Shown: positions 18,241 through 54,745, counted from the first letter of the stretch. The stretch: DNA of 55,940 bases from Catajapyx aquilonaris (GCA_000934665.2 KZ538652.1:1-55940), one strand, 5' to 3'. The notes: generated from the letters alone by a model not told the origin. Numbers and translations: made by a program.

Positions 18241-19386
18241 TCAATGCAGAGCCTTCATGTGGCTCTGGAGGTGGTGCTTCATCAGAAAGTCCTTCTTGCA
18301 CACGGTGCACACAAAGGGCCTCTCCCCAATGTGGAAGCGCATGTGCTGCTCCACGTGGTGCTTCATAGTAAAGCCCTTTCCACACACGAGACAGGAAAAG
18401 GGCTTCTCCCCAGTGTGAGTGCGCATGTGAATTGTTAAGGGGGTTTTCCTTGCAAATTTTTTGGGACACAAGTCACACTGGAGTGTCTTACCTCCACCTT
18501 CCGTGTGGACTCGAATTTTGTGCGCATTTAAGGCTGTAGGGGTGGCAAATGTCTTGTCACATAATTTGCAGGCATAGGGACGTTCTGAAGTGTGGGTTCG
18601 CTCATGTAATGTTAATTGGTTCGAATAATGGAACTGCTTCCCGCAAGTGGCACATTGCTTTGACTTCCCCCTTGACTTCTTACTGTGATTCCTCAGGTGC
18701 TTTTGCCATGAAATTATATTTGGCAATTTTTGGGGACACGAGGGGCACTGGTACTGTTTTGCTGGTTGCTTATTGTGTTTGTATATTTTGTGAGTACGTA
18801 ATCCACTTCGAGTTATATATGTCTTGTCACATAATTTGCAGGCAAAGGCACGCTCTCCACTGTGCGTCCGCTTGTGGGCCTTTAATTCACCAGGCCATTG
18901 ATATCTCTTCCCACAAGTGTCACATTTGTGCGGCAACTCACATATGTGAGTGCACCTGTGATCTGCCAGGTGCCTCTCATTGCTGTAATTTCGGGGACAC
19001 AGGTCACACTGATATCTCCTTCCTGCTCCCTTCCCGTGGATTTGATAATTGTGGCGGTCTAGGCTACCTAGCGATGCATACTCCCTGTCACATATGGTGC
19101 AGGTCACCTGAAGGGGTTTCATGTGGGCCTTCTTTGGGCGGGTAATATTGATGGGATCAAGGTCCCTCTTCCCACAAGTGGAGCATTCACACTGCCCCTT
19201 TCCAGTGCATTCTTGTGGCCTCACTGCCGTATGGGTTGCAGTGCCATTTGCTTCTTTCCCTGTCAGTCCTTCAGAGGTGGTTCTGCAAGCGGAACCCAAC
19301 CCGCTGCCTGATAACTCCATGCTTCCATCTTCGTCTTCTGATGCTGGACTTGTCGCATGTCCTGAATTGACCTCGGCCAGACAAGT
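18241..19386 (-). CDS. Terminal exon of copy B, 10 C2H2 fingers
   Basis: Acceptor ctctttcAG. Fingers run from CTICDREYASLGSLDRHNYQIH to CTVCKKDFLMKHHLQSHMKALH, with HTGEKPF-type linkers. Confidence 0.92.
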   Translation of the reverse strand, partial: TCLAEVNSGHATSPASEDEDGSMELSGSGLGSACRTTSEGLTGKEANGTATHTAVRPQECTGKGQCECSTCGKRDLDPINITRPKKAHMKPLQVTCTICDREYASLGSLDRHNYQIHGKGAGRRYQCDLCPRNYSNERHLADHRCTHICELPHKCDTCGKRYQWPGELKAHKRTHSGERAFACKLCDKTYITRSGLRTHKIYKHNKQPAKQYQCPSCPQKLPNIISWQKHLRNHSKKSRGKSKQCATCGKQFHYSNQLTLHERTHTSERPYACKLCDKTFATPTALNAHKIRVHTEGGGKTLQCDLCPKKFARKTPLTIHMRTHTGEKPFSCLVCGKGFTMKHHVEQHMRFHIGERPFVCTVCKKDFLMKHHLQSHMKALH

Positions 19387-36683: not shown

Positions 36684-37204
36684 TTTTTTTTTAGTAGTTA
36701 ACCTTCCTCGCGACCCAAAGTTGGGGTCGCGACCGCAAAACGGAAAAGAACACACAGACAGCGGCCGATTTCCCATTAGGCACAGTAGGCACTGGCCTAT
36801 AGGGGCGGCCGCCCTGCAGGGGCGGCCGCGAGTTGCAATAAATAATATTTATCAAATATAATAATAGGAAATTAAGGCGAGATCACAAAGAAAATCGAAT
36901 TTTTGAGAGCTTGATTTACCACTAGAGGCAGAAAAGGTAATTGCCGAAGGGCGGCCGCCCTCTGGTCGGATATAACTTTCAATATAATATTTTAAAATAA
37001 ATAACATTAAATGAAGGAGATAACACAATAAAAAATTTGCATTTTTAGGCGTCAGGCCGGGGGGAGGGGCGGCAGTATCTCAAGTGCCGAAGGGCGGCCG
37101 GGGGGGNNNNNNNNNNNNNNNNNNNNNNNNNNNNNNNNNNNNNNNNNNNNNNNNNNNNNNNNNNNNNNNNNNNNTGCCCCCCCCCCCCCCCCTAGATCCG
37201 GCCC

Positions 37205-38755
37205 TGGGTGTGGCATAGCCATGCTCTTTTGACGATTGCGGTTGGCCTTTGGGCCGCCCTAACCTCACACCCTGTCGGCCAGTTAGGGGATTTCTCTTTC
37301 GTCTCGCGTCTGCTGTTGGTTGGGTATGGATCTTTCCTCGCTTGCATCGTCCTTTTGCTGATTGTCCTGGCATGTTGGCAAATGTGTGCAAGCCGGACAC
37401 AAACCCTGACTGGGTTCGGCAATATAATGACATGTTTTTACCGAGTTTCAACATTGCCTCTTCGAAGGTTTTTGGATCATCCTTCATCAAGGCATCCAAC
37501 TTGTCATTGAATTGGTCACGAAAGCATAGTGCTTCATGTGATATTGCATGTGCCTCTCTTTCAAATGCTCCACCTTCTACATCTACTGATGTAGTCTCTT
37601 CATTTTCTGGTGACGCTGGCGCTCCTGTCAAGGGGGTTAGTGTTTGTTCTTCTAGAGGCGACTTTTTTAAGTGCGGATTGAGCCAACCCTTTCGTGGCTC
37701 GAGTCCATATGCTACCTTGAACATCATATGTTGCACAGTTGTATTTGCCTCATTGTGTGGTTCATATCGCTTTGGAAACTTCTGCATGATACCTGACATG
37801 TGCTTGCAAAGTGCCCCAGTTCTTCCCTGATGACATTCACAAGAAAATACTTCCATGTTGACCAGGTACATGGTACTAGGGTTGGTTTCACTAGGTACCG
37901 CATACAAGTGTGAGCCAAGGTCCATTATTTTTTCACTAGGAATTGCTCCTCCAGGTGGCAGAAACCTCCGAAGCTGGGACTTTGGGAACCGAGAATGGGC
38001 GAAATCAATCAATTTGGCCTGAATGAAGGGGCCATACTTAGTTATAATGAAATCGATGAGTTGAACAACATTATAGGTCTTAACTCGCTTCAAAATGCAA
38101 TCTTTGAGTATCTTGAATGTGACTTCCACATAATTGTTGGTGTGTGTATACCCCTCAACAACAAATTATTTCTGCATGCCAATGCCCATTTCTCCCTTCT
38201 CTCCCACATGAGGGCTATGTAACGCAGGAATGATGGGTACTTAGAGACTTGGGGATCTACCTGAAAGTTGGCATACTTTTCCAACAATTCCTCTTCTGAA
38301 GTGCCATAGAGCATTTCCCTGAACCGCATCATAAGGTGTTGTCGATCATCCTGATGCACGTAGTGATTTTTGTCCATAAGCCAGGTCCACACAGCTTTCA
38401 GTACGTGAAAGTTACACAACAGGCATTGAGAATTAGGCCAGTGATGTTTCAGGGCAGCTTGTTCTTTTAGGTCATCGTCGGTCATAAACACCTGTGGGTG
38501 TCCCCTGCCAAAAAAGGCTCCTTCTGGAAGGCATTCTTTCAAGAGTGACAATCCCTCCATGAAAACATCGACCTTCTCTGAATCAGTGATAACACAGCCG
38601 AGAGGAATGCCCCCAGCTGGTGTGGGCGTGATGAACATGAAGACGCGGTAATTTTCTCTGTCCATATGACCTGATGCGTCAACAAGTACCAGTTCGGCAG
38701 ACTGGGGTATGAGGGTATGTGCCCTCTTCATCAGGTCGCTGCACAATGCTATGCA
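37205..38755 (-). pseudogene. MULE transposase 3' part (DDE core plus SWIM finger), frameshifted
   Basis: LVLVDASG...FMTDDDLKEQAALKHHWPNSQCLLCNFHVLKAVW (CxxH). TNNYVE is split by a 2-nt slip in a CA run near 38140. SWIM motif CECHQGRTGALCKH. Flanked by both assembly gaps. Confidence 0.85.
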
Positions 38756-39158
38756 AGGGGGGGGGGGGGGGCACANNNNNNAATAGCATTATTGTCGCGG
38801 TTTGAGTGGCGCGGGGTGTGTATCACCTTGGGCAGTGCCATCCGGTGGCAGAAAAATAAAGTTCCTAAGAAATGCCCGTGGCGGTGATATGGTAAAATAC
38901 GAAAAGGAGGCGACCTCGATTCTTGCTTCCCCTTCATTTCGGGCTTGCGTTGATGGTGTCACGGTGCTGGACGGTGGTGTTAAATTGCTTCCATTAGTCC
39001 ATCACCTGCAGCCTGCAGGCCCTCACTGTAGTCAAGCGTGAGCCCAAGGCTAGGGCCCTTCCTGCAGGGTGATATGATACCTGGTCACTGTGCTGACATT
39101 AGTTATTAAAATGTGGCGCTACTGAAGAAGTGATAGAGGTAGAAGACAGCATGAATGC

Positions 39159-41577
39159 ATGATGGAAGGAGACGAAGCAAGAAGAAATAAGGCGCTGGTG
39201 GAATGTAAAAACTGTGGCAACAGTTTCAGCACGCATGGGAATTTGCTCAGGCATCAGAGGATTGCTCACGGAGGCCCTTTGCCTGCTGCACGTGCAGCAC
39301 CAGCTTGTGTGTGCTCTATATGCGGGAAAACATTCACCCGGGTGAGGGATTTAAAAAAAAACATAGCCGCAACTTTCATCCTGAGCCATCCATATCAGCA
39401 CCAGGGGGAGGTGATGAAAAGGAACAAGCTGGGGAGATGTGTGTAACTCCCCAAGAAATGTCCCAAGACCCAGGAAATGCAGGTGGGTGAACTCCCTGCA
39501 GCCAAAGAGGAGGGGTTTGCCATCATATTCTAATCTTTTTGTGCATTGGTGTTTCCACTTGCAGACGTGGAGATTGATCAGCGATTGAAGATGCGGCTGC
39601 AGGACATGTTGCCTGAGCTCTACCAGTATCGTTTTGAAGCCATTGAAGCCGTGGAAAATGAACATGACAGTTTCCATACTAGATTCCGAGTTGGGGGTGT
39701 GACGTCAGAGGCAGATGCCAAGGTAATGCAGGCCCTTATTCATGAAATTTCTTTTACACAATCTGCACTTCTGTAACAGTCTTCTGTAACAGTTAATTTC
39801 TGCCTGCTTTGCTCATTGTCAGCTGGTCTAGTCATCTGGTCAAAATTGAGATATATCACTGTTGCACATATTTTGCAAGTTTCATTGAACCTCACCCTTC
39901 ATTGCTGCACTTTTATTACTCAACCGCATCAATTTCTTTGCAGATGTGGTTGAAGGCCTTCATGGCAACGTCGCTAACAACTTTTCGAGTTGACAGGACA
40001 ACACCACACTGTGGAAAAGTCAATTTGTACAAAACATAATATTTTCGAGGCCAACACAATACGAGGACTCACAGCCACCAAATGAGGGCATCAAAAAACA
40101 CCGATTGTGAAGGAAGGCTCACCATCACACTCAAAAGGTAAACATCAAGCATGAAAATGATACTATTTTACAGTGTGTGCAACTACGTAGTACATTCACC
40201 GTATACTGTACAGAATAACTGACTCAGACAATAATTTTAAATAATATATATACACTTCTCCCTATATCCCAGTCTGGAATGAGTATCTAAACTTTTTTCT
40301 GGTGCCATATAGCTTACATAGAGTAGGCTACATAATTATAATTATATCAACCGAAGTGTAATGCAAAATCATTGGTTTTGCAGATACCTTCCTAAAAGCA
40401 AGGCAAAGCACATGGACCCACTTCTCAGGGATTGGCCTTGCATTGTGGACCTTCACCATGTCCAAAATCATGAGACTGACATTCCATGTGCCTTGAAGTA
40501 CAGACCCATGGGTTCAGAAGTGAGAGACAGGTTGCTTGAGTTGTTTGAGAGTCGCCATTCTCCAGCTGCAGCTAGAGACGTCATTAAAACTGAACTACAG
40601 TCGCAGCATGTGAATGACTATCCCAGGTACTCGGCTGACAATTATCATCTTCCTTCGGTGGCACAAACATTTCATCTGTACTACAAGGAATTTAAGAAAG
40701 TATATGGAGGTGGAGTGACAACAGCTGAAATGCTGCAGGATTTAGAACAGCTTCTCCTGAAATTGGACCCTAGCCTTACAGGTATGTAGAAAATGCTGCG
40801 ATGGGACCTATATTTCCTTCCAAAGGTAGCTAATAATTAACATTCTTTGCAGGTAAGGTGAAAATGAAACTTTACGGACAACACCTTTGCATAGCATTGT
40901 GCAGCGACCTGATGAAGAGGGCACATACCCTCATACCCCGAACTGGTACTTGTTGACGCATCAGGTCATATGGACAGAGAAAATTACCGCGTCTTCATGT
41001 TCATCACGCCCACACCCAGAGCTGGGCAAGCTAACCGAAATTTTTAGCTCAGCTAACTTCCGCTAACAGCTAATTCGGCTAGTAAACCGTGGGCGGCGCT
41101 AAATTGCTAATGATAAACAGCTAGAATGATTAGGGGGGTTTCCACTAACCTTTCTAGCTGTTCAGCATTAACGATTTGGTGATATCCATGGTTTTGCTGA
41201 GCCAGTTGGCTGTTATCGAAAGTTAGCTGTGCCCACCTCTGCCCACACCAGCTGGGGGCATTCCTCTCGGCTGTGTTATCACTGATTCAGAGAAGGTCGA
41301 TGTTTTCAGGGAGGGATTGTCACTCTTGAAAGAATGCCTTCCAGAAGGAGCCTTTTTTGGCAGGGGACACCCACAGGTGTTTATGACCGACGGTGACCTA
41401 AAAGAACAAGCTGCCCTGAAACATCACTGGCCTAATTCTCAATACCTGTTGTGTAACTTTCACGTACTGAAAGCTGTGTGGACCTGGCTTATGGACAAAA
41501 ATCACTACGTGCATCAGGATGATCGACAACACCTTATGATGCGGTTCAGGGAAATGCTCTATGGCACTTCAGAAGAT
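39159..41577 (+). pseudogene. Intron-containing MULE transposase 5' part (2 C2H2 fingers, WRKY/FAR1-like region, start of DDE), disrupted and 3'-truncated
   Basis: Approximate exons 39159-39482, 39565-39722, 39944-40137, 40384-40781 and 40853 onward, with GT-AG ends. Frameshift in the A-run near 39355. About 40885-41577 duplicates the minus-strand copy, with a short deletion and a MITE insertion. Confidence 0.75.
41017..41241. mobile_element. hAT MITE inserted in the transposase
   Basis: 8-bp TSD CCCACACC and TIRs CAGAGCTGGGCA / TGCCCACCTCTG. The uninterrupted sequence is seen in the minus-strand copy near 38620. Confidence 0.9.
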
Positions 41578-41881: not shown

Positions 41882-42299
41882 TTTTATATATTATGGTCAA
41901 TATGCTGCCCATAATAGCGGGCTAAATGGTTACTGTTAAAATTATAAGTATATGCAACGCGCGCCATCGCAAAACCCGTATTTTCTCCGTTTTTATTTGC
42001 AGCCACCTGGCGGCAAATGCCGAAGCTCTTGGATTCGTCGCGCTCTGGCTGAACTATGTGTATTTGGAAATTATGCTGTCGGATGGGGCGTCCGTCGCTC
42101 TTCTTGTCGATACCACCACTTGTTGACGCCGCCGGCTTGGGATCGGCCGCCTCTCGTTTTGTCTTGTTAATTAATCGATTAATTACAGCCCTTTCCCCTC
42201 CCCTCCCGCCCGCCCACCATCCTCCCTGCACCCCTTCCCTCCTGGAAAAAGGAAGGAAGAAGCCCCTGTGGGCCATCATCATCATCTCCAAGGCAAATT

Positions 42300-43551
42300 G
42301 ATGACTTTCCAGTTGCACGCCCCTAGCGGCCAAATTTGGCCTGCCATCAAAATGGCGGCGTTAGTTGTGCAGAGGCGGGATTTTCCTATCCCTGCCCATG
42401 TTAAATGGCCTCTGCTTGCTCGCCTCTGGGGGTCTGGCCCCGGGGCAGATCTTGTTGACATATTTTTTTCTGGAGTGAGGAGGTTCCTGGCCTGCCCTCA
42501 CCAGGTTCCAAAAGTTAATTGGCCCCCGGGCGGACTGCCCCCGGAGTGATTTTGTGAGTGCGAGTTTCTCATTACTAATATCCGGTGTCTTTATTGTCCG
42601 CGTCTGATGGTTTGGCCCCGGGGCAGATCTTGCTGGTTTTTTTGAGTGACCAGAGACCGGACCTTCCCTTTTACCAGGTGCCTGAAGTGAATCGGCCCCG
42701 AGGCGAAGTGCCCCCGGACCCGGAGTGATTTTCTTTTATGGTGGTGACAGAGCTTTTCTCATTATTATCTGGGCTCCGATTGTCCGCATCTGGTGGTTTG
42801 ACCCCGTGGTAGATCTTGCTGAGCATTTTTAAAATGGTTCCACTAATTTCATAAATTACAGTGTCACCTTACACTCCCAGCATAACAGAACTGTTGCAAA
42901 AATATGCACGTATACGGTACAATCGTATCGCTAACATTCATTAGAACATAATTATGACAGATATTTTTTTTAAATGAGCAAGCTACAAACTCACACAAAC
43001 ATAGTCAAAAGGGTTCATCCTCAGCAAGATCTGCCCCGGGGCCAAACCGCCAGACGCAAACAATCGGAGCCCAGATATATACGCAATAATGAGAAAAGCG
43101 CGGTCACCACCATAAAAGAAAATCACTCCGGGTCCGGGGGCACTTCGCCTCGGGGCCGATTCACTTCAGGCACCTGGTAAAAGGGAAGGTCCGGTCTCTG
43201 GTCACTCAAAAAAACCAGCAAGATCTGCCCCGGGGCCAAACCATCAGACGCGGACAATAAAGACACCGGATATTAGTAATGAGAAACTCGCACTCACAAA
43301 ATCACTCCGGGGGCAGTCCGCCCGGGGGCCAATTAACTTTTGGAACCTGGTGAGGGCAGGCCAGGAACCTCCTCACTCCAGAAAAAAATATGTCAACAAG
43401 ATCTGCCCCGGGGCCAGACCCCCAGAGGCGAGCAAGCAGAGGCCATTTAACATGGGCAGGGATAGGAAAATCCCGCCTCTGCATATCTAACGCCGCCATT
43501 TCGATGGCAGGCCAAATTTGGCCGCTAGGGGCGTGCAACTGGAAAGTCATC
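42300..43551. mobile_element. Foldback MITE with ~520-bp arms and AATT target duplication (Sola-like)
   Basis: GATGACTTTCCAG...CTGGAAAGTCATC flanked by AATT on both sides. Removing it restores ggcaaattagac, matching the host's opposite TIR. Confidence 0.75.
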
Positions 43552-44034
43552 AATTAGACCAAAAAAAGGCCGTGCTTCCCGAAAAATCTTCCAAAGCTGG
43601 AAAGTGTTTTAATACCTTATTTAGGGGGTCCCAAATAAGAGTCCTGTGAGTTTGCGACGGATTCTGACTTCTGCTTAAGCGTTGGGAGTCAAGAAACCGC
43701 GAAATTTTCCCCCTTTTTTGTAGTTTTCCGCTTATAACTCCTACACTATGCAGCCTACCGAAATGTCTACTCTAAACATTGTTAAAGAGCATTAAATGCC
43801 GCGTCGAATGGCCTTTGGTCCGTCAAAATCGGCCCAGCCGTTTAGCCGCAATCGACTTTTTAAGTTGGGCCATTCATATTCTTTTTACAGAAAATAAATA
43901 TTCTTTCTTATTTCCAGTCGTGCAGTTCTCGGAGTGGCGAAGGAGCAAAACCGACCGTTTACATGCATACATCTTTTGTTACCTTCAATTAAACAGTATT
44001 CATTATAATGCCTTCTTATATTCTGAAACCACAT

Positions 44035-45012
44035 AACATCCGTGTTTGGAGTGTCCAGGTGCGAATCCAATAGGGGGGAGGAGCGCCACGAATCATAGAT
44101 TTTCGGAAACCCCAGAACAATTAATACAAACAAGAACAGCTACATCACGAAATTTCCCTATGGGGCGTAGTCAGCTATGAAGGGAGACGCAAGCTACCCT
44201 GACATATGAACTAATAAAACTCATGAGAATAAACCTAAAAACAACCTGTCCCACCCCTGCCCACCTCAGACATCACCTTATCCTCAGACATATTTACCTA
44301 TTTACCCATTAATTAACCTACGCCATTTACACCTATCCAAACAAACAACCCTAGCCTCAGCCACGTCCATGGTCCTATTGACACAAGAACGTCTCGGCTT
44401 AACACTAGCAACACCCTTAAGACACTGGCCCACCTGGTCCAACCATGTCTTCCTAGGCCTACCCTTGCCCCTCTTACCAACTACTCCACCCAAATAAACC
44501 TTCTTCACAATCTCCTCCTCCTTCATCCTCTCCACATGGCCAAACCACCTTAGAGTAGACCTACACACCTTATCTTTAACAGTCTCCTTAACCTTACACC
44601 TCTCCAAAATCTCCTCATTCCTAATCCTATCGAACTTGGTAACCCCACAAACAGCCCGGAGATAACGCATCTCTGTAGCCAACACCCTGCTCTTATGCCT
44701 ATCTGACCAGACCCACGCTTCACTACCATACATAAGTGAAGGAACAATAACGTGAGAATAGGCAGACAACCTACAGGCAGAAGATAAGTCCTTATTTCTA
44801 GAAAACTTACTTGTGGCACCTATTACTTTCAACCCAGCTAAATACTTTTCTATCACGAGTCTCATACAGAATATCTGATAGTCTACACAACTCTTACCCG
44901 ACATAAACCCACTCTGAATATTCAGTATTCTCTGACTTGTGACCCTCTTAACTCTTTCTATCAAAACCTTAGCATACACTTTCCCTGGTACACTTAACAA
45001 ACTAATGCCACG
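44035..45012 (-). mobile_element. RTE-clade LINE fragment (5'-truncated, RT core internally deleted)
   Basis: RGISLLSVPGKVYAKVL...QSGF..GKSCVD.QIF is joined directly to LMYGSEAW...DRIRNEEI...LRWFGHVERM...GRPRKTW, followed by a 3' UTR. Confidence 0.85.
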
Positions 45013-45490
45013 AACAATTAATAATTAATATATTATTAAAAATAAGGATTAGACTTGAAATTCCAAAGGGGGGGGGGGGGGGTCGTGCCCCTCTTCCCTC
45101 CACTCTTGGATCCGACCCTAGATGATTGTCATTGAATAAAACATCATCAAATGATTCATATGATCCATTCCAAGCGCAGTATCAAATTTTTAGCCAAGTT
45201 GGTAAAACATGGCCCAACTTAAAAGGTCGATTGCGGCTAAACGGCACCAAAAACCATTCGACGCGGCATCTAATGCTCTTTAACAATGTTTAGAGTAGAC
45301 ATTTCGGTAGGCTGCATAGTGTAGGAGTTATATGCGAAAAACTACAAAAAAGGGGGAAAACTTCGCGGTTTTTTGACTCCCAACCAACGCTTAAGCAGAA
45401 GTCAGAATCCGTCGCAAACTCACAGGACTCTTATTTGGGACCCCCTAAAGGTATTAAATCGGTATTTAAAAAGGTATTTATCGCAAAGAC

Positions 45491-46408
45491 TTGTGTATCA
45501 AGACAGTTGAATTGCACCCACAACCCACCTTTGTGGCACTTAATGACATAGGCTTATGGGCATATAATCTACCGCATCCAGTGGATATTACTGTCACATG
45601 CTTGAATGCAGAAAGCAGTACCATTGAAACGTTAACTGGAATAGGAAAAATAAATATCAAACCAGGATGTACAGGACTTACCAACAGTATGAGAATAGTA
45701 TCAGGATACCAAGGCCTAACACGAGCAAAATACCCGTTAATACAGTCAATTGTAGTTCCACGAATCTTAAGCATATTAACGCCAGAGGAAAGTAAATGGA
45801 TTGTTGCATTATCTCAAAATCAGTCGTTCATGACAAAGATGTCCAGCAAGTTCACAAAAAATATGGACATGCCAATAGCTATGCAGTCATTGCAAAGTGA
45901 GTTAGATTCCTTACATGAGATTCCAGAAACATTTCAGAGCGTTAATGGAAATAATGATTTCATGTGGCAGTCTTCAATCTCGTATTTCTGGGTGATAGTG
46001 ACTGTGGTCGCAGCAATTGCTATGATCATATGTTGCTTGGTAATGATAAAACGTTTCGATATATGTAACCTCAGCCAAAGGAACAATGCACTTCCGAAAG
46101 TTCCGAAGTTGACGCCGAGTAACCATAAATACGATATTGGGGGCATAACACCACTACCAGCCGAATCTTTGTTTGATACCTCATATAAATTTCAATCCAG
46201 TATAGCCAGAATGACAACCAATGATGATTATGTGGATATGGGCAAACCAAGCACTAGTAACGTACATGTAGTAGACGCTGATTTAATTTTAACGCCATTT
46301 GATCATGTAAAACAATTAGAAGCTAAGGAACCTACACCAGTCATAAATAAATGTAAGAATAAAAAGGACACATTGAAGACTAATGGAGTGGCAGTAATGA
46401 TTAAATAG
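45491..46408 (+). CDS. env: Envelope (baculovirus F-like / errantivirus env) C-terminal part, 5'-truncated
   Basis: FVALNDIGLWAYNLP...ITVTC....TLTGIGKINIKPGC..T pattern of the F-type env ectodomain end, then a TM helix (YFWVIVTVVAAIAMIICCLVMI) and a long cytoplasmic tail. Lies upstream of a PPT and LTR. Confidence 0.7.
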   Translation: MCIKTVELHPQPTFVALNDIGLWAYNLPHPVDITVTCLNAESSTIETLTGIGKINIKPGCTGLTNSMRIVSGYQGLTRAKYPLIQSIVVPRILSILTPEESKWIVALSQNQSFMTKMSSKFTKNMDMPIAMQSLQSELDSLHEIPETFQSVNGNNDFMWQSSISYFWVIVTVVAAIAMIICCLVMIKRFDICNLSQRNNALPKVPKLTPSNHKYDIGGITPLPAESLFDTSYKFQSSIARMTTNDDYVDMGKPSTSNVHVVDADLILTPFDHVKQLEAKEPTPVINKCKNKKDTLKTNGVAVMIK

Positions 46409-46893
46409 TTCACTCATGAAGGTAACGAGAAGAAGTATAGCCATAAATGTGATATGGAGTATATTTAAATAGTAAGAGAATAGTATATAAACAAGTCATT
46501 TATTTCCAAGTATAACTAAACGTATATAGTCACGTAATTAATGATTGTAAAGTTTGGTGATGAGTATAATCACACGATGATAGTAATAACAGTGGAGTGT
46601 TTTATGTTTCACACGCAAAAGAGTTGATGACAGTACAAATGGTCATGAGTGACGATTGAATTCATTTTTTTTAACAGAGTCTCCAAATCCCTCAATATGC
46701 CTAGAGTGAGTCACAATATTATAGATTAAGTCTGCAGCTGTGGCCGACTCTTCACTGTGTATATCCATTGACCGTAGAGGTAATAAGTTTTGTGAATGTT
46801 TATCTTAATGTCAGCTATACCTCGCTTGTGGAATCAATGTAAAAAGAAGTGTACTATATAACTACCGGAGGGAGTGTTACCGACCAGTCACAG

Positions 46894-48510
46894 ATGACCA
46901 CCATGGAAGAGAAGCAAGATGTTAGTGCGGAAGAAGAGCTGTCCAAGTTATTGGAATGGAGTAGTGAACACTATATACCGCCAGAAACACAGGTGCAGCT
47001 GTTCGAGGACTCGCATCCAGATGAGTTTTTAGTGGAAACCATGGACGACCTAATACCCATACCTGAACACGTGGCACACCAATACTCTATTACACCCGCC
47101 ACAGAAGCCATTCCAGACCTGTTATCCATTAGCAGTCCAGATACCGAAACACAGTATAATCCATCCCTACCTGTAGCACCTTCCCAGAGGGAGGAGGAAA
47201 GAAACAAGGAACACTATTCCAATGAGCAGTACCCTCAGAGAGAGGTATACACAGACGCAAGTACCAGTGTCATCGCAAGTACCAGTGACATCGCCAGCAC
47301 CAGTGTCATCGCAAGTACCAGTGACATCGCCAGCACCAGTGTCATCGCAAGTACCAGTACATATATCAGTGCCATTGCAAGTACTAGCGGCTGTGCCAGC
47401 ACCTGCGCTAGAATCCATAGTGCCATACCACGGACAAATGTCGCAAGATTGTCTTCGCAAGTGCTCAGGAAGATACCTTACTATACTACTGATTGTAATG
47501 TCACACCTAACCTCCCTGGATTCCAGTATCCATATCCTTTAGCCCGGTATACACTTGAAAAGCACATACAATGCCATCAGATTACGGTGCCTAATCACGG
47601 CATCATTCCGGTAAAGCCTGGCCGACACACATCAACGGTCATCGCCATTTGTAAACAAATGCTGGAGTTATGTCCAGAAGGGGTCTATCTGGCCACCCTC
47701 AATAGTCATATAAAAGCTGAACAAAAGGTGGAGGAGGAATGTCCATTGGCAGGATGTCATGGGAAGATAGGAAAAACAGGAATTAGTTGCCACAAGCATT
47801 TGTTACTGCATTTGAGTATCGCTACGGTGTCATGTCCCAGTTGTGGCTTAAGCTTTGAAGATTTTAGTTCAAGGTTAAGCCACATGTATACTGCACACCT
47901 TTCATGTTTGAAGGAATGTTTGGAAGCAATAGGCTTGAAGTTGTTAATGGATAGCACCATAAGAAACAGGGGAATACAAACAGAAACCGATCATACAGGG
48001 ATGGAAACAGAAACAGAAGTCGTGTACGGAAAGCCTCTTAAAGGCCCAAAAATGATACATGCAAGTTACCTACAATTACCTGCATGGGAATGGACAAACT
48101 CACAAGAAGCAGTGCAGTTAACAGTAGGGAATAAAGAACCCGCATGGATAGATTTAAAGGCAAAAGATACTCCTGCAGTCCTAGACTTAATAACTATGTT
48201 GAAAACAGTACCAAGCGGAATGGAGATAATGCCAAGGCAAAGAACTAAGCTGTACAAGGGGAGAGCAGAGAAGTGTCCAATGATAGACTGTGCTTGTTCA
48301 CTAAGCCAGCATATAAGTAGGCCACCCCACTTGGTCAGTCATTTGAACACAAATTGTATGTATTGCCCTATTTGTTGCCGGTCGTGGTACAGCATCCTGG
48401 CCTGGATAAATCATTTAGTACACACTCATACGGAGCACATGAACACGGTATTAAAACAAACTGGCTATGAACATGTTTTGCATTATGGAAGGACACAAGT
48501 GATTATGTAA
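46894..48510 (+). CDS. Retroelement accessory ORF: acidic N-terminus, 6-aa IASTS(V/D) repeats, two duplicated pairs of atypical C2H2 fingers
   Basis: Intronless open frame of 538 codons from ATG 46894 (Kozak-like ACCATGG at 46903). Fingers: CPLAGC..HLLLH, CPSC..HMYTAH, CPMIDC..HLVSH, CPIC..HLVHTH. Confidence 0.8.
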   Translation: MTTMEEKQDVSAEEELSKLLEWSSEHYIPPETQVQLFEDSHPDEFLVETMDDLIPIPEHVAHQYSITPATEAIPDLLSISSPDTETQYNPSLPVAPSQREEERNKEHYSNEQYPQREVYTDASTSVIASTSDIASTSVIASTSDIASTSVIASTSTYISAIASTSGCASTCARIHSAIPRTNVARLSSQVLRKIPYYTTDCNVTPNLPGFQYPYPLARYTLEKHIQCHQITVPNHGIIPVKPGRHTSTVIAICKQMLELCPEGVYLATLNSHIKAEQKVEEECPLAGCHGKIGKTGISCHKHLLLHLSIATVSCPSCGLSFEDFSSRLSHMYTAHLSCLKECLEAIGLKLLMDSTIRNRGIQTETDHTGMETETEVVYGKPLKGPKMIHASYLQLPAWEWTNSQEAVQLTVGNKEPAWIDLKAKDTPAVLDLITMLKTVPSGMEIMPRQRTKLYKGRAEKCPMIDCACSLSQHISRPPHLVSHLNTNCMYCPICCRSWYSILAWINHLVHTHTEHMNTVLKQTGYEHVLHYGRTQVIM

Positions 48511-48727
48511 ATGAGTTGAGGCATTTGGAGATGGAGAAGTTATTTTGTAGATATTGCTGAAACTGTCATGATTGTTTTATGAAACATGTTTATGTGAATG
48601 TAACTCTGATAAGGTTATTGTGTATGTTGAACATTTATTCATATGGTCTTATACCATCTTGTATGGATAACGTAGTAGGATAACGGTTAAGAAGCAACTG
48701 GAAATTTTCTCCTTTGTGGGTGGATAT

Positions 48728-49535
48728 TGTCATGCCGCCTACGGCATAACAAGGACTTAATTACGATATTAATTGGCATTTAATTACACACTTCATAACC
48801 CTAAAATTATTACAGTTTATTGAGAACACGCATCTAAATTAACCTAGAGAATGGGCTAGGCAGCACGGAATCTATAAAGCAGTAGACTCCCTGGCGCCAG
48901 TAATCCATACAAAAGAGCCATTAGAGTCCAAGCGCGGTGGAAAGGATAGAAAACTTACAGCATCAATATGACACACATATTACGGGATGCAAGAAGCGGA
49001 TTAATACAGATGTGAAAATACCGAACCCCACCCCAAACCGGGCACTATAAAAGCAGGGCCGAGTCATAGAATCAGACACAGAGACAGAGAGAGACAGACA
49101 GAAGCAGCAGACGCAGATCATACGCAAGTCAGGCAGTAATCAGGTAAGCCAGCCATGTTGCAAAATTTCCAGTTGCATTTATTTTACTTTTCGTGCAACC
49201 ATAGGTTGAAGTGTATGGTGCATGATTATGGTATACGGATGTAAGAGTACATGTAGTTAATCCGTTATGTGTTGTAGAAGATGAACAGAACTGTAGACGT
49301 GGTTGTTGATGTCATAATATGTGGAAAAGAAGTATTATTGGACTTGTGAACTATGTATGTATGTATATGTGTGTAGGAGAGAGAGATGTACATGGTAGTA
49401 TAACAAAGAGCCTTACGTGGCTGCATTAAATAGGTTATTTGAAATCATTCCCCGACATTATTTATTTCCGCTGATATCCGACGCAAATACCTCTACCTAA
49501 CTTAAGTTCGAGCCCGTACCTGCGTTGGTTCGACA
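48728..49535 (+). mobile_element. 3' LTR of an env-bearing Ty3/gypsy-like retroelement
   Basis: Starts TGTC after a PPT-like GTGGGTGGATAT. TATAAAA at about 49046 and ATTAAA at about 49425. Ends GACA exactly where the host TIR resumes (TAAA, also present at 45455-45458). An alternative end at 49457 is possible. Confidence 0.7.
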
Positions 49536-50809
49536 TAAAACACTTTCCAGCTTTGGAAGATTTTTCGGGAAGCATATGTCTAATTTGCCTGGACTATGGC
49601 CAAAATGGCTTGTTCCATCTTGGGGCCAATGCTTTCTGGAAAGAAATCAACTAAACTACTTCGCCCAAATAGTAATTCAATTTGGTCGTCCAGAGGGTAA
49701 CTTGCATTCTGTTCTAATTAGAGAAACAACGATGCCTTCCATCCAGGATTTTTATTACAGTACTAGGTATACACCTGAATGCCTGAGCATTAAAAAATGT
49801 TATCAACATAGTTTCCAACCAAATTGCAGCATTTGTCATAGAGCCACACAAGATCTTGCATGCCTCTGCAGGGATTACTGCCTTATCCTCCTGAGACCGT
49901 ATATGCAAGTAATCCCTGGCCTCTGTCATAACAGTTTGCCATTTCCACGACCCCCGGAATAAAACATTGGGCTGGGATTCACTCTTAGCAATGGTCAAAC
50001 CCCTGCCTTGAAAGCCATTTTCTCACGTGCATGGAGAGGTGGTAATGGCCAAGTGCTATGTTCACGATAAATTTGGGAGAAAGTACTGAATAATGTTATT
50101 CTTGTCGGACGATCGTCTGTACATGCTTGATATGCGCAGGAGAGTACTGAATACGTGACCAGAGGTGCAATATTCAAATGCAACAAGATGTGGTGAGAAA
50201 AACAACTCTTTCTCTATCATCATGCTGTTGCTGCAACATACATCACTGGAGAGACCTGCATCAGACCTGGAAACTTTGTTGCAGTATGATTGCTGTTTGC
50301 AAAAACATTGGCATAAAAAGCTGTCCTTTAATATTTGACCTCTTTTCTCTCCAATATCATTATTATTTTAATCAGCATAAAAATGTACTGTACTTCAAGA
50401 GGAAAGTGGATGCCATGTCATTACACTAATTTTCGGTCTCTCAGGGATTCTGCAAGTAAGGTGGAGAGCTTGGACATGCAGGGTGGTCGGTAAATGGTGC
50501 ACAAGCAGCAAGTAGCGAGATTCCTTCTGAAAAACCCGCACAAGGAAGTGAAGGTTCTATTGCTCTACGATGCCTGGTTAGAGCTCACGAGGCCAAATCA
50601 TGACGTCACATCCGCCAGCGAAAATAAAACACTGCCGTATCGCTACTGGATACCAGATCACTTCATGATTTTTTTTAAAAGTGCAGGTAGACCAAACCTC
50701 ATGCCGAGTTCGGAGCAGTGCTGACTACTCCATCAATAATATATTCTTTCCTGTTCCAACCTCCTGATCAGAGAAGACTCTGTATTGTTGCTGCTTCATC
50801 AGAAGGTGA

Positions 50810-51922
50810 TCAATGCAGTGCCTTCATGTGGCTCTGGAGGTGGTGCTTCATCAGAAAGTCCTTCTTGCACACGGTGCACACAAAGGGCCTCTCCCCAATG
50901 TGGAAGCGCATGTGCTGGTCCACGTGGTGCTTCATAGTAAAGCCCTTCCCACACACGAGACAGGAAAAGGGCTTCTCCCCAGTGTGAGTGCGCATGTGAA
51001 TCGTTAGGTGGGTTTTCACTGCAAATTTTTTGGGACACAAGTCGCACTGGAGTGTCTTACCTCCACCCTCCGTGTGAACTCTAATTTTGTGTGAATGTAA
51101 GGCTGTAGGGTTGGCATATGTCTTGTCACATAATTTGCAGGCATAGGGACGTTCTGAAGTGTGAGATCGCTCGTGTAATGCTAATTGGTGCATATAATGG
51201 AACTGCTTCCCGCAAGTGGCACATTGGTTTGGCTTCTCCTTACTGTGTGTCTTCAGGTGTCTTTTCAAGGAAACTATACATGCAAATTTTTTGGGACACG
51301 AGGGGCACTGTTTGGCTGGTTGCTTATTGTGTTTGCGTATTTTGTGAGTACTTAATCCACCTCGTGTTCTATATGTCTTGTCACATAAGTTGCATGCAAA
51401 GGCATGTTCTCCACTGTGCGTCCGCTTGTGGGCCAATAATTCACTATGCCATTGATATCTCTTCTCACAAATGTCACATTTGTGCGGCAAATACTGTGTG
51501 TGAATTCGCAGCCTGTGATATGTGAGGAGCCTTTCACTGCGGTAATATCCTTGACACAGGTGACATTGATATTTCCTTCCTGCTCCCTCCCCGTGGATTT
51601 GATAATTGTGGCGCTCCAGGCTACGTAGCGATGCAACCTTCCTGTCACATATGGTGCAGGTCAACTGAAGCGGTTTCTTGTGGGCCTTCTTTGGGCGGGT
51701 AATATTGATGGGATCATGCTCCCTCTTCCCAGTGCATTCCTGTGGCCTCTCTGCTGCATGGGTTGCAGCGCCATTAGCTTCTTTCCCTGTCAGTCCTGAC
51801 CGTGAATCAGAGGTGGTTCTGCAACGGGAACCCAACCCGCTGCCTGATAACTCCATGCTTCCATCCCTGTCTTCTGATGCTGGACTTGTCGCATGTCCTG
51901 AATTGACCTTGGTCAATAAAGT
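50810..51922 (-). CDS. Terminal exon of copy C, 10 C2H2 fingers
   Basis: Paralog of 19386-18241 with the same acceptor; open for 371 codons including TGA. Confidence 0.92.
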   Translation of the reverse strand, partial: TLLTKVNSGHATSPASEDRDGSMELSGSGLGSRCRTTSDSRSGLTGKEANGAATHAAERPQECTGKREHDPINITRPKKAHKKPLQLTCTICDRKVASLRSLERHNYQIHGEGAGRKYQCHLCQGYYRSERLLTYHRLRIHTQYLPHKCDICEKRYQWHSELLAHKRTHSGEHAFACNLCDKTYRTRGGLSTHKIRKHNKQPAKQCPSCPKKFACIVSLKRHLKTHSKEKPNQCATCGKQFHYMHQLALHERSHTSERPYACKLCDKTYANPTALHSHKIRVHTEGGGKTLQCDLCPKKFAVKTHLTIHMRTHTGEKPFSCLVCGKGFTMKHHVDQHMRFHIGERPFVCTVCKKDFLMKHHLQSHMKALH

Positions 51923-53361
51923 CTGAAAGAGACCCCCACAGTAGGTCAATGAGGTCAACGTTACATAGTAAAATCCTGCAACCCCTATCCTTGCACAAAA
52001 TGTCAATCCAATATGGCATGTGCTGTTCCCTATGATGTATTCGGTGCTTCATTCAATAATAAACAAACAAATTCAGTGTCTATGGGTAATAACTGGTTCT
52101 AAGCGGGGAGGCATGGTGGCCGAGTTGGCAACATCTCGGCTTACTGAGTGAAAGGTCCCGGGTTCCATCCCCGCCTGGAGTTCCCTTTCGCCTGCGTCAG
52201 GACCGGGTCTCTGACCCACGCCTTGGAGGCCTCCGGCAACCTAACCTCCTGGGAGACTGCACATTCCGACATTGCACATGAACCCGTGTCTCCTCCCCTA
52301 AAAATCCCCACCCTTACCCCCCATGTTCTTTCTTCCCTGCACGGAGTTTGAAGAAAAACACGAAAAAGTGAATGGAAAATATGGTGGTGTTCCACCCCCC
52401 AAAGAGGGCCTCTGGCCCTAGCACGGGGTAATACAAAAAAAAAATGGTCTAAGCCCCCACCTGCAGGTGTACCTTACCCCGAGATAAACCAAACCCTGCA
52501 CAATAAGGTCCTGGCTCAAGGCCTAATGGGGAACGTGATGTGGCAGAGAAGTAGATCTTACACATCGTACACCACAATTATTCACCATCACCTTCAATGC
52601 CAACCTTTGACTTGGCATGGGGAACAGTAATGCCGTCACTGGTGCTGGAGTTGAGGCTCACAGGACTGGAGCCACGTCTCCTCCATTGCCACAGTCCATT
52701 ATATTTGGGGCACAATATACAGGGTGTCCGCAATGAACCTCCCTAATTTCAAAGAGCAGTAAAAAATACACATGCAGAGGTTTTTGAGGTTTTTGTTGTT
52801 TAAACGGTCAGGAGACTCTACAAGTTTCATACTGAAATCTTGGGATGGTCTATGGGATGGGGTGGTGCTCCTGTGGGGCTGTTGGAAGACACAAACATAA
52901 CATCTACAGAGGGAAAAACACAGGCGGTGTGGTGGTTAGCTGAGCTCAAGTCCATTACAGAAGTGCTGGACATGCTTAAAATTTCGCCTTTCCACAACTA
53001 CAAGACAGAGTAGGGTAAGATATTCTAACCACCACACCACCTGTGTTTTTCCCTCCGTAGATGCTATGTTTCCAAAAGTTCAGTATGAAACTTGTTGAGT
53101 CTCCAGACCGTTTAAACAACAAAAACCTTAAATACCTCTGCATTTCTATTTTTTCCCTGCCTCCCTTTTCATCAACATGTCCCTTAGACTCGAAGTCCAG
53201 ATGTGTTACAAAGTTGTTTTGGCGTCCCGTAATTGAAAACCACAATGTGGGGAAAGTAGAGAGGGGACAGATTGAAGCAGAAGAGGGAGACGGCCACCAC
53301 CATAACGCTACTGACTGCAGTGGTATTAATCGGGAAAGCAGGCACAGTAAATCGGCTTTAA

Positions 53362-54745
53362 CCCTTTGATGGCGACGGACATCATATGATGTCCGAGCTT
53401 ACATTGCTGGAGGGCCTACGGACATCATACGATGTCCTGAGACTTGCCCTGCCAACTTGGGTCATTTTTCAACTCAAAAAATTTCAACCTCACCGATTTT
53501 CTTCAAATTCGGCGCATAGGTAGCCCACCCCAAGGGATGAAAAACGCACCTATAGTTCCCTGCTCGAAATGACCCTGTGACCCAATTTTGAGGGGGGCAG
53601 AGGTCAAATCATAAAATTTCGACCTCACCAATTTTCTTCAAATTCGGTCCATTGGTAGCCCACCCCAAGGGATGAAAAACCACCTATAATGACCTGATCA
53701 AAATGACCCTGTGACCCGATTTTGAAGGGGGCAGAGGTCAAATCATAAAATTTCGACCTCACCTATTTTTCTGAAATTCGGTCCATTGGCAGCTCACTCC
53801 AAGGGATGACAAACCCACCTATAGTTCCCTGCTCGACATGACCCTGTGACCCATATTGGAGGGGGACATATGTCAATGCACCGAATTTCAAGAAAATCGG
53901 TGAGTAGGGCTGTGCGATATCCGAAATTGCATATCGACTTTCGATACTCAAAAAATATCGAATCGAAGTCGATATATCGAAAATCGAAAAACCGACATCG
54001 AACAATATCGAAAATATCGCAAAACGACATCGCGATATTCGATACATCGCACATGCCAAGCGTCGGATATCGAAGTTGCGTTATCCGACGCTTGGCATGT
54101 GCGATGTATCGAATATCTCGATGTCGGTTTGCGATATTTTGCGATGTGCGATATTTTGCGATGTCGGTTTTTCGATTTTCGATATATCGACTTCGATGCG
54201 ATATTTTTTAAGTATCGAAAGTCGATATGCAATTTCGGATATCGCCCAGCCCTACCTATCGGTGAGGTCGAAATTTTATGATTTGACCTCTGCCCCCCTC
54301 AAAATTGGGTCACGAGGTCATTTTGATAAGGTAACGCTAGGTGCGTTTTTCATACCTTGGAGTGGGCTACCAATGCACCGAATTTCAAAAAAATCGGTGA
54401 GGTCGAAATGTGACCTCTGCTCTCCTCCATTATGGGTCATAGGGTCATTTCGAGCAGGGAACTATAGGTGCGTTTGTCATCCCTTGGTGTGGGCTATCAA
54501 TGCACCGAATTTCAAGAAAATCGGTGAGGTCGGAATTTTATGATTTGACCTCTGTACCCCTCAAAATTGGGTCACGAGGTCATTTTGATCAGGTAACTAT
54601 AGGTGCGTTTTTCATCCCTTTGGGTGGGCTACCTATGGACCGAATTTGAAGAAAATCGGTGAGGTCGCAAAATTTCCGGAAAAGGGGGAAAAAAAACTCC
54701 GGCCCTGGGGTAATGCAATCCCTCAAAAACTCCGCCATCAAAGGG
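53362..54745. mobile_element. piggyBac-like non-autonomous element with internal ~130-bp repeats in both orientations
   Basis: TTAA TSD (53358-61, 54746-49) and TIRs CCCTTTGATGGCG / CGCCATCAAAGGG. Empty site in the paralog near 2260. Confidence 0.88.
53905..54254. mobile_element. Palindromic hAT-type MITE rich in CGATA motifs, nested in the piggyBac-like element
   Basis: TAGGGCTGTGCGATAT...ATATCGCCCAGCCCTA. Approximate TSD TCGGTGAG, with 4 extra nt on the right. Confidence 0.75.

What the first reader, a model, noticed from the sequence alone, without database searches (positions are those of the whole stretch)
45459..49535. Env-bearing LTR retroelement with an extra zinc-finger gene between env and the 3' LTR (complex-retrovirus-like layout)
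Seen: on one strand, an env C-terminus with TM helix, then an intact intronless ORF of about 540 aa, then PPT and LTR. The extra ORF has an acidic N-terminus and two duplicated pairs of C2H2-like fingers. Known: canonical errantiviruses are gag-pol-env, whereas an accessory gene 3' of env is a hallmark of complex retroviruses (foamy virus tas/bel, deltaretrovirus tax). Inference: this could be an element-encoded transactivator or anti-silencing factor in an insect endogenous retrovirus lineage.
Basis: partly seen in the sequence, partly recalled or inferred. Interest (0 to 1): 0.85.

Follow-up and report, generated by a model that had tools for sequence, protein, structure and literature searches.

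The report
Truncated env retroelement with extra zinc-finger gene
This is the 3' part of an envelope-carrying retrovirus-like element in an animal genome, and between its envelope gene and its terminal repeat it carries an intact extra gene with no known relatives that looks like a zinc-finger regulator.

Summary
The sequence features are real. 45470-46408 (+) matches Pfam Baculo_F above its cut-off (E 7e-8, C-terminal third only) and has a membrane anchor. 46894-48510 (+) is an intact 538-aa ORF, the longest open frame in the window. It has an acidic N-terminus, Ser/Thr repeats and two duplicated pairs of C2H2-patterned fingers.

An uninterrupted inverted copy of the target lies 2 kb upstream. 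It shows that 45459-49535 is one insertion flanked by a 4-bp duplication (TAAA), so env tail, ORF and terminal repeat arrived together.

Contigs from one other DNA sample of the same organism hold at least two further versions (about 97% and 88% identical). They cover env end, spacer, ORF and the ORF-to-repeat junction, so the ORF belongs to the family and not to this copy alone.

The ORF has no relative among 1.84 billion representative proteins. This copy lacks gag, pol, the 5' repeat and two thirds of env. No convincing polypurine tract was found, the start of the terminal repeat is not fixed, and the host being an insect is unverified. The proposed transactivator or anti-silencing role is untested: no RNA runs were listed and the structure models were poor.

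Verdict: the layout is supported at family level, the function is open. It is a new variant of a known kind, of moderate interest.

The parts
45459..49535 (+). Inserted 4,077-bp 3' fragment of an env-carrying LTR retroelement: env tail, spacer, extra ORF, spacer, terminal repeat
   Evidence: Empty-site comparison with the inverted copy of the target at 43574-43650. No other copy in the window.
45455..45458 (.). Left copy of the 4-bp target-site duplication TAAA
   Evidence: Junction print-out.
49536..49539 (.). Right copy of the 4-bp target-site duplication TAAA
   Evidence: Junction print-out.
45470..46408 (+). C-terminal third of an F-type envelope gene (312 codons to its stop). The N-terminal two thirds are absent.
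   Evidence: Pfam Baculo_F E 7.1e-8, profile 415-594 of 609. No word-based relatives found.
45992..46048 (+). Membrane-anchor helix of env (fragment residues 175-193), followed by a cytoplasmic tail of about 116 aa
   Evidence: Hydropathy window mean 3.2.
46409..46893 (+). 485-bp A+T-rich spacer between env stop and ORF start. It holds TATA-like words at 46484 and 46855 and, read by eye, a pyrimidine-tract-plus-AG word near 46660-46677.
   Evidence: Sequence, word scan, GC 0.35. Functional meaning is inferred only.
46894..48510 (+). Extra ORF, 538 aa plus stop, intact, with no membrane helix
   Evidence: No relatives found.
46894..47247 (+). Acidic N-terminal region (net charge -21 over the first 120 residues of P0001)
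47256..47406 (+). 18-nt tandem repeats encoding Ala/Ser/Thr-rich hexapeptides. Another copy has a net 45-nt (in-frame) length difference just upstream.
   Evidence: Joint 47209>47257 with 2 letters between, in 3 of 4 runs.
47740..47898 (+). First pair of C2H2-patterned fingers (47740-47811 and 47833-47898)
   Evidence: Sub-threshold Pfam zf-C2H2. Weak PDB hits, all to classical C2H2 proteins.
48274..48438 (+). Second pair of C2H2-patterned fingers (48274-48342 and 48364-48438), an internal duplicate of the first pair
48728..49535 (+). Putative 3' LTR. The 3' end is firm; the 5' border is uncertain (48728 by TGTC...GACA termini, or about 48906-48968). TATA at 49046, ATTAAA at 49425.
   Evidence: More contig depth than the interior, a rough indicator only.
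43574..43873 (-). Left arm of the inverted-repeat element that was the target. It holds the uninterrupted (empty) version of the insertion site.
45209..45458 (+). Right arm of the same inverted-repeat element, up to the insertion. The arm resumes at 49536-49574.

Best explanation
45459-49535 is the 3' part of a low-copy, env-carrying LTR retroelement with an F-type envelope, errantivirus-like. The family carries a fourth gene between env and the 3' LTR. The fragment sits, with a 4-bp TAAA target duplication, in one arm of an inverted-repeat element inside a zinc-finger gene cluster.

Shown:
- Env tail, ORF and terminal repeat form one insertion.
- The same arrangement exists in other, diverged copies.
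- The ORF is intact and has no known relatives.

Inferred:
- The 538-aa product is an element-encoded nuclear regulator. Its two pairs of C2H2-patterned fingers would bind nucleic acid: the element's own LTR DNA, or its RNA.
- The acidic, low-complexity N-terminal half would recruit host machinery. The outcome would be activation of LTR transcription, or handling of unspliced RNA as Cer1 CERV or Rev do.
- It would be made from a spliced subgenomic mRNA or from a start within the env-ORF spacer.

This copy itself is dead as a retroelement, because gag, pol, the 5' LTR and most of env are missing.
For: Baculo_F match above cut-off and membrane anchor. Empty site against filled site with TAAA on both sides.

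No repeats bracket the ORF within the insertion.

One search covered four runs from one sample, counted as one source. Each listed ORF position is covered by 1-5 contigs.
- X1 records 4 and 5 cover 47314/47320-47805/47780 with 60 and 15 other letters, so at least two further versions exist.
- Contigs run from env end into the spacer up to 46846 (records 3, 11, 20, 27, 28).
- A contig runs from the ORF into the terminal repeat, 48052-48935 (record 23).
- None of the 15 displayed joints skips the ORF.
- Summed depth over env and ORF bins is alike (X1: 144-188 against 105-241).

None of the 20 listed ORF differences is a stop, and the listed length difference is a net 45 nt, in frame.

ORF length is far beyond chance. 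The internal finger-pair duplication keeps all 8 ligands. All 12 weak PDB hits are classical C2H2 DNA binders.

Third-position composition of the finger half (A 0.34, GC3 0.41) is nearer env (0.37, 0.36) than the host zinc-finger genes (0.24-0.25, 0.52-0.53).
Against: No gag, pol or 5' LTR is present here, so the class (Ty3/gypsy or another) is not shown.

A 5'-truncated LTR element flanked by a clean target duplication is not what integrase normally produces, and I cannot explain it.

The fingers do not reach Pfam cut-offs. Both structure models are of low confidence, pLDDT 36.5 and 54.6.

The 20 listed differences give 7 synonymous to 13 non-synonymous, a ratio near 0.5. This is not significantly below neutral (one-sided p 0.11), and they are a shown subset of 686 differences.

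Divergence of the 88% version is the same in the ORF (about 12%) as in the non-coding spacer (about 12%), so constraint since the copies separated is not visible.

Several upstream ATGs precede the ORF start. Contigs are short, and no single record links env, ORF and repeat. Whether the ORF is open in the other versions could not be read.
Confidence: 0.55

Rival explanations
1. Passenger ORF. The frame is a captured or newly arisen sequence carried along by this family. It has no role in the element's life cycle, and it is open only because the copies are young.
For: No relatives anywhere. About half the protein is low-complexity or repeat sequence. No significant excess of synonymous change. 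Equal divergence of ORF and spacer in the 88% version.
Against: A 555-codon open frame is kept in a copy that differs by 2-3% and about 12% from the other versions. All 8 zinc ligands are kept in both duplicated finger pairs at only 26% identity, which implies a long period of constraint after the internal duplication. The 88% contigs show 12-14 gap letters in the spacer but 0-2 in the ORF.
Confidence: 0.2
2. Host-retained remnant. After truncation, the ORF of this or similar fragments was kept by the host as a gene of its own, for example a zinc-finger regulator or a restriction factor. Its intactness would then reflect host selection.
For: The copy is dead as an element yet the ORF is intact. 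It lies in a cluster of host C2H2 genes. TATA-like words lie in the spacer.
Against: The exact copy is not in the other DNA sample: only half of the sampled words are held, and every contig at the listed positions differs from the window. This argues against a fixed host gene. No RNA holder was listed. The env tail, which a host gene would not need, is open too.
Confidence: 0.08
3. Separate unit. The ORF belongs to another mobile element, or to a LINE-mediated retrocopy of a subgenomic RNA, and is not part of an LTR provirus layout. The 4,077-bp unit would be a retroposed RNA copy and not a truncated provirus.
For: The insertion is 5'-truncated with a short target duplication at a TTAAAA word, the kind of site LINE endonucleases use (site preference recalled; sequence). 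A LINE fragment of very high contig depth lies nearby.
Against: There is no poly(A) tail. The only poly(A) signal in the repeat (ATTAAA, 49425) lies 110 nt before the end, so the end at ...CA 49535 looks like a DNA-level LTR end and not an RNA end. Even under this reading the source RNA would carry env, ORF and repeat in this order, so the family layout would stand. No repeats bracket the ORF alone.
Confidence: 0.1
4. Assembly artefact. The junctions in this rearranged, palindrome-rich stretch are mis-joins.
For: Near-perfect palindromes and inverted duplications lie close by (42296-43555, 38292-41576), with N gaps at 37107-37174 and 38776-38781.
Against: Independent contigs from another sample cover env end to spacer and ORF to repeat. 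The insertion has clean borders with a target duplication.
Confidence: 0.03

Closest known systems
Errantiviruses and other env-carrying Ty3/gypsy elements of metazoans (insect gypsy/ZAM group; the 'ancient errantiviruses' of PMC13524379)
   Same: F-type envelope with membrane anchor upstream of the 3' LTR. 4-bp target duplication (the 4-bp figure for gypsy is recalled). A-rich coding strand.
   Different: An extra 538-aa ORF lies between env and the LTR. The 2012 review (PMC3383448, section 9, read in full) says accessory genes are 'not shown for the errantiviruses'. Passages of the 2026 survey retrieved by term search mention none. Pol is missing here, so membership is untested.
Complex retroviruses with regulatory genes 3' of env (spumavirus tas/bel, deltaretrovirus tax/rex)
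   Same: Position of the extra gene between env and the 3' LTR. The modular look of an activator: an acidic region plus a nucleic-acid-binding region.
   Different: No sequence similarity to anything. The fingers are C2H2-patterned, which those proteins are not (recalled). The envelope is of another class. Splicing and transactivation are untested.
Cer1 CERV of C. elegans (PMC10309623; abstract and passages read)
   Same: An element-encoded protein about 500 aa long, found only in a narrow lineage, 3' of pol in an invertebrate LTR element. It has a Cys-rich putative finger and regulates the element's own RNA.
   Different: CERV occupies the env position and is made from a 5-exon spliced mRNA that shares gag exons. 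Here a true env is present as well, and the ORF is one continuous frame. There is no similarity in sequence.
LTR retrotransposons with captured additional ORFs (bdelloid rotifer ORF3 types, PMC5408684, abstract and passages; plant aORFs, PMC7264820, search listing only)
   Same: Family-specific extra ORF downstream of pol, carried through amplification.
   Different: Those ORFs stand in place of env (GDSL lipase, DEDDy exonuclease, TM proteins) or are plant-specific. Term searches of the rotifer paper for 'zinc finger' and 'C2H2' gave 0 occurrences.

Membership tests
Env-carrying LTR retroelement of the errantivirus type | Envelope gene homologous to baculovirus F / errantivirus Env (Pfam PF12259) | tested here: met
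   E 7.1e-8, 31.9 bits against cut-off 24.1, but only profile positions 415-594 of 609.
Env-carrying LTR retroelement of the errantivirus type | C-terminal membrane anchor of Env | tested here: met
   Residues 175-193 of the fragment, mean hydropathy 3.2.
Env-carrying LTR retroelement of the errantivirus type | Cleavage site and fusion peptide in Env | tested here: inconclusive
   The N-terminal two thirds of env are absent from this copy. Other copies could not be read.
Env-carrying LTR retroelement of the errantivirus type | gag and a Ty3/gypsy-order pol (PR-RT-RH-IN) upstream of env | tested here: inconclusive
   None in the window. Scans gave only a weak RVT_1 hit (E 0.007) in an unrelated minus-strand LINE fragment. 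No genome is held.
Env-carrying LTR retroelement of the errantivirus type | Two LTRs in direct orientation | tested here: inconclusive
   Only one copy in the window. The stretch 48850-49671 has about 3 times the summed contig depth of the interior, a rough indicator only.
Env-carrying LTR retroelement of the errantivirus type | Short (4-bp) target-site duplication and TG...CA ends | tested here: met
   TAAA on both sides and a 3' end ...CA. The 5' end of the insertion is not an LTR end.
Env-carrying LTR retroelement of the errantivirus type | Polypurine tract directly upstream of the 3' LTR | tested here: inconclusive
   No purine run of 8 or more before 48728. The candidate at 48939-48953 would imply a shorter LTR.
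Classical C2H2 zinc finger (Pfam PF00096 / PF13894) | Ligand spacing C-x2-4-C-x12-13-H-x3-5-H | tested here: met
   Four motifs. All 8 ligand columns are invariant between the two pairs.
Classical C2H2 zinc finger (Pfam PF00096 / PF13894) | Score at or above Pfam's gathering cut-off | tested here: not met
   17.2 bits against 27 (PF13894) and 12.2 against 25.2 (PF00096) for the whole ORF. Sub-segments do no better.
Classical C2H2 zinc finger (Pfam PF00096 / PF13894) | Beta-beta-alpha fold | tested here: inconclusive
   The model of the second pair shows a hairpin plus helix over the second finger, but mean pLDDT is 54.6. No fold search was run on it.
Complex-retrovirus transactivators (Tas/Bel1, Tax) | Gene located between env and the 3' LTR | tested here: met
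   Order env tail, ORF, terminal repeat within one insertion.
Complex-retrovirus transactivators (Tas/Bel1, Tax) | Sequence or fold homology to those proteins | tested here: not met
   0 hits at E 0.001 or better among 1.84 billion representatives. The PDB search gave only weak C2H2 hits.
Complex-retrovirus transactivators (Tas/Bel1, Tax) | Expression from a spliced or internally promoted mRNA, and activation of the element's own LTR | not testable with these tools
   No RNA holder was listed. Needs RNA-seq and a reporter assay.

The most novel reading that the evidence does not exclude
An invertebrate lineage of F-env-carrying LTR retroelements has independently evolved a complex-retrovirus genome plan: gag-pol-env plus a fourth gene. 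That gene would encode a sequence-specific zinc-finger regulator acting on the element's own LTR or RNA, or blocking host silencing. It would be the first accessory regulatory gene found in an errantivirus-like element.
Probability: 0.2. Interest if true: 0.8.

Novelty: new variant of a known kind. Interest (0 to 1): 0.55.

Why it matters
Accessory regulatory genes are the feature that separates complex from simple retroviruses, and they are known almost only from vertebrate viruses. The 2012 review of Drosophila errantiviruses states that none is shown for that group.

A family-level fourth gene in an F-env retroelement would have three consequences:
- It would show that this step in complexity arose more than once.
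- It would offer a small, testable protein-LTR pair.
- It would add a fast-evolving zinc-finger protein on the element's side of the conflict with host silencing, a conflict usually described with zinc-finger proteins on the host's side.

If the ORF is only a passenger, the locus is an ordinary dead retroelement fragment.

Tried and rejected
- **Whole-genome search for other copies:** no genome is held for this window.
- **Relatives of the ORF:** the word-indexed search of 5.8 billion proteins scored 8000 candidates with none at E 0.001 or better. The exhaustive phmmer over 1.84 billion representatives gave 0 hits. The viral contigs and metagenome-contig scans gave 6 and 85 pattern matches, none confirmed.
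- **Relatives of the env fragment:** none among 476 candidates of near length or 1356 longer candidates. None among 12 pattern matches in viral contigs.
- **Earlier notes of this scan:** nothing by place or by sequence.
- **RNA evidence:** no RNA holder was listed, so expression and splicing are open.
- **Structure:** the whole-ORF model had pLDDT 36.5 and the finger-pair model 54.6. Both are too poor for a fold search, so none was run.
- **ESM Atlas:** the ORF's nearest clusters are C2H2-type at 0.91-0.94 but with low recognition. Env's nearest are arthropod clusters at 0.80, one with Baculo_F in 14% of members. These are leads only.
- **Rfam and tRNA scans of the window:** 0 matches each.
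- **Bacterial promoter/terminator scan of the spacer:** not meaningful for a eukaryote and disregarded.
- **ORF as a copy of the neighbouring host zinc-finger gene:** rejected, best E 0.31.
- **ORF on a nested transposon:** no bracketing repeats.
- **Contig depth as copy number:** used only as a rough indicator, because the tool warns against it. Parts were not shown (646 further differences, 185 indels, 46 joints, 1336 loose ends), so ORF-less copies or frame breaks in other copies cannot be excluded.
- **Literature:** three full-text searches found no report of a post-env ORF in an errantivirus-like element. This covers only open-access text. I did not open the supplements of PMC13524379, which may list element structures.


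Full report
**What is in the sequence**

On the + strand, 45470-46408 is open for 312 codons and 46843-48510 for 555 codons, 538 aa from the ATG at 46894. The second frame is the longest open frame in the whole window. The next longest are host zinc-finger genes of 412 and 402 codons. At the window's stop-codon frequency a 555-codon open frame has a chance of about 1e-11.

The first frame matches Pfam Baculo_F (PF12259) above the curated cut-off: E 7.1e-8, 31.9 bits against 24.1. The match covers only profile positions 415-594 of 609, so it is the C-terminal third of an F-type envelope protein. It has a strong hydrophobic helix at residues 175-193 and a tail of about 116 residues. Word-based searches found no close relative of this fragment: none among 476 near-length candidates or 1356 longer ones.

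**The extra ORF**

- The first 120 residues have net charge -21.
- Next come 18-nt tandem repeats at 47256-47406 that encode Ala/Ser/Thr-rich hexapeptides.
- The C-terminal 330 residues hold 17 Cys and 22 His. Four motifs have classical C2H2 spacing and are arranged as two pairs.
- The two pairs are an internal duplication: 26% identity, E 2e-7, with all eight metal-ligand columns invariant.
- Pfam sees only sub-threshold C2H2 matches, 17.2 bits against 27 at best.
- A PDB sequence search gave 12 weak hits (E 0.04-1.4), all classical C2H2 DNA-binding proteins, aligned over one or other pair.
- There is no membrane helix.
- There is no relative in the word-indexed search of 5.8 billion proteins, in the exhaustive search of 1.84 billion representatives, or in viral or metagenome contigs.
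- It does not resemble the neighbouring host zinc-finger gene, best E 0.31.
- Single-sequence structure models were poor, pLDDT 36.5 and 54.6. I ran no fold search on them.

**Borders and context**

A paralogous copy of this zinc-finger gene region lies 32.5 kb upstream. 16786-16990 matches 42082-42289 (94%) and 17022-20308 matches 49597-52855 (89%). Everything from 42290 to 49596 is therefore extra relative to the paralogue, a 7.3-kb block of nested insertions.

Within the block, 43608-43873 and 45209-45458 are inverted copies of each other. The 39 bases just outside the left arm are the reverse complement of the 39 bases that follow 49535. Read together, the left arm is an uninterrupted copy of the site into which 45459-49535 was inserted:
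- Empty site: GGTAT-TAAA-ACAC.
- Filled site: GGTAT-TAAA, then the insert, then TAAA-ACAC.

Env tail, spacer, ORF and terminal repeat are thus one 4,077-bp insertion with a 4-bp target duplication, ending in ...CA. Inside it no direct or inverted repeats bracket the ORF, so nothing marks the ORF as a second, nested element.

**The terminal repeat**

It occurs once in the window. It has a TATA word at 49046 and ATTAAA at 49425.

Its 5' border is not fixed. 48728 gives TGTC...GACA termini but no polypurine tract. The only purine-rich run is at 48939-48953, and contigs from other copies break near 48906-48935.

**What is missing**

There is no gag, pol or 5' LTR in the window. Of the 18 ORFs of 150 aa or more in 1-40000, 15 were scanned. 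Env starts at about two thirds of its length.

A 5'-truncated LTR element with a clean target duplication is unusual, and I cannot explain it. One possibility is a later deletion that happened to end at the element's 5' border. Another is a LINE-mediated copy of an RNA, since the target contains TTAAAA. Against the second, there is no A-tail, and the only poly(A) signal lies 110 nt before the end.

**Other copies**

One search found four DNA runs from a single sample of the same, coded organism. They hold about half of the sampled words of the stretch, so the exact copy is not there but close relatives are.

Laid at 80% likeness or more, each listed position of the ORF is covered by 1-5 contigs, and at those positions every contig differs from the window. 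Two versions stand out:
- One version is about 97% identical: 15 other letters in 461, 19 in 567, 11 in 441.
- The other is about 88% identical: 60 in 492, 53 in 442, 46 in 390.

Contigs of both versions run from the end of env into the spacer: 46364-46846 with 57 other letters, and 46466-46816 with 10. A contig of the closer version runs from the ORF into the terminal repeat, 48052-48935 with 19. None of the 15 displayed joints skips the ORF, although 46 joints were not shown.

Summed depth is alike over env and ORF (X1: 144-188 and 105-241) and about three times higher over 48850-49671. The tool warns that this depth is not a copy number. All of this comes from one sample and short contigs. 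No record spans the whole unit.

**Selection**

Of the 686 differences only 40 were shown, and 20 of those lie in the ORF. They are 7 synonymous and 13 non-synonymous, with no stops. That gives a ratio of about 0.5, not significantly below neutral (p 0.11). Five of the seven synonymous changes fall at or after residue 293, in the finger half.

The one listed length difference in the ORF is a net 45 nt, in frame. The 88% version is as diverged in the ORF as in the spacer (both about 12%). It shows 12-14 gap letters in the spacer contigs against 0-2 in the ORF contigs. These are hints, not proof, of constraint.

Third-position composition of the finger half resembles env more than it does the host genes.

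**How it most likely works**

The shown facts support a family-level genome plan of env, extra ORF, then LTR.

From the architecture I infer an element-encoded nucleic-acid-binding regulator. The acidic, disordered N-terminal half would be an effector region and the two finger pairs the binding part. It would act on the element's LTR as a transactivator, or on its RNA. It would be expressed from a spliced subgenomic RNA, for which a pyrimidine tract plus AG lies near 46660-46677, or from the spacer, which has TATA-like words at 46484 and 46855. No RNA holder was listed, so none of this could be tested.

**Comparison with what is known**

Env-carrying Ty3/gypsy elements are now reported across metazoans, with F-type and gB-type envelopes (PMC13524379; abstract, outline and term passages read). 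The Atlas lead to arthropod clusters scored only 0.80.

The 2012 review of Drosophila errantiviruses says accessory genes are not shown for the group (PMC3383448, section 9 read). Extra ORFs are known in rotifer and plant LTR elements, but in place of env. Cer1 of C. elegans encodes a regulator, CERV, in the env position (PMC5408684 and PMC10309623, abstracts and passages).

Three full-text searches gave no report of a gene after env in an errantivirus-like element. Subscription journals and the supplements of the 2026 survey were not seen.

**Verdict**

The complex-retrovirus-like layout is supported for the family, on limited evidence, but this copy is a dead fragment. The proposed function is plausible and untested. 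It is a new variant of a known kind, with interest 0.55.

Noticed in passing
window 17022-20308 and 49597-52855; also 16786-16990 and 42082-42289: A segmental duplication of a C2H2 zinc-finger gene region (89-94% identical). Relative to the upstream paralogue, 42290-49596 is a 7.3-kb block of nested insertions. Contigs from the other sample show the paralogue-type junction and a third variant of it (table 5c).
   Followed up: partly
window 42296-42766 and 43085-43555: A near-perfect palindrome: 471-nt arms, 99% complementary, 318 nt apart. It lies right at the left edge of the inserted block. Related sequence is repeated elsewhere in the window, and contigs of the other sample join the two strands here.
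   Followed up: no
window 38292-38627 and 41241-41576 (with 38619-38759 / 40884-41016): Inverted duplication (99%) of a MULE-transposase-like coding region. Both arms hit Pfam MULE at about 1e-7. N gaps lie nearby at 37107-37174 and 38776-38781, so it is either a foldback arrangement or an assembly problem.
   Followed up: no
window 44192-45013 (- strand ORF 44302-45024): A LINE-type reverse-transcriptase tail fragment. Its summed contig depth in the other sample is about 45,000-90,000, against about 35-55 for apparently single-copy contigs. It is a very abundant repeat of this genome.
   Followed up: no
window 48694-48708 and 49162-49176: A perfect 15-nt inverted repeat. One arm lies just upstream of the putative LTR start and the other in the transcribed part of the LTR. 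About 0.008 such pairs are expected by chance in this stretch. It could pair the two ends of a genomic RNA, as the cyclisation sequences of yeast Ty1 do (recalled).
   Followed up: no
window 53469-54675: An array of units of about 135 bp in both direct and inverted orientation, 65-91% identical, downstream of the zinc-finger gene.
   Followed up: no
window 45459-49535 against flank 43834-44231: The other DNA sample holds a 398-nt contig identical to the flank (0 differences). Every contig over the element differs from the window by 2-3% or more. This particular insertion may therefore be absent from that individual, that is, polymorphic and fairly recent.
   Followed up: partly
window, host genes and repeats generally: CpG observed/expected is about 0.41-0.53 in the host zinc-finger genes, the MULE and LINE fragments and the extra ORF. 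It is 0.66-0.84 in the env fragment, spacer and LTR. The genome appears CpG-depleted, which suggests DNA methylation.
   Followed up: no
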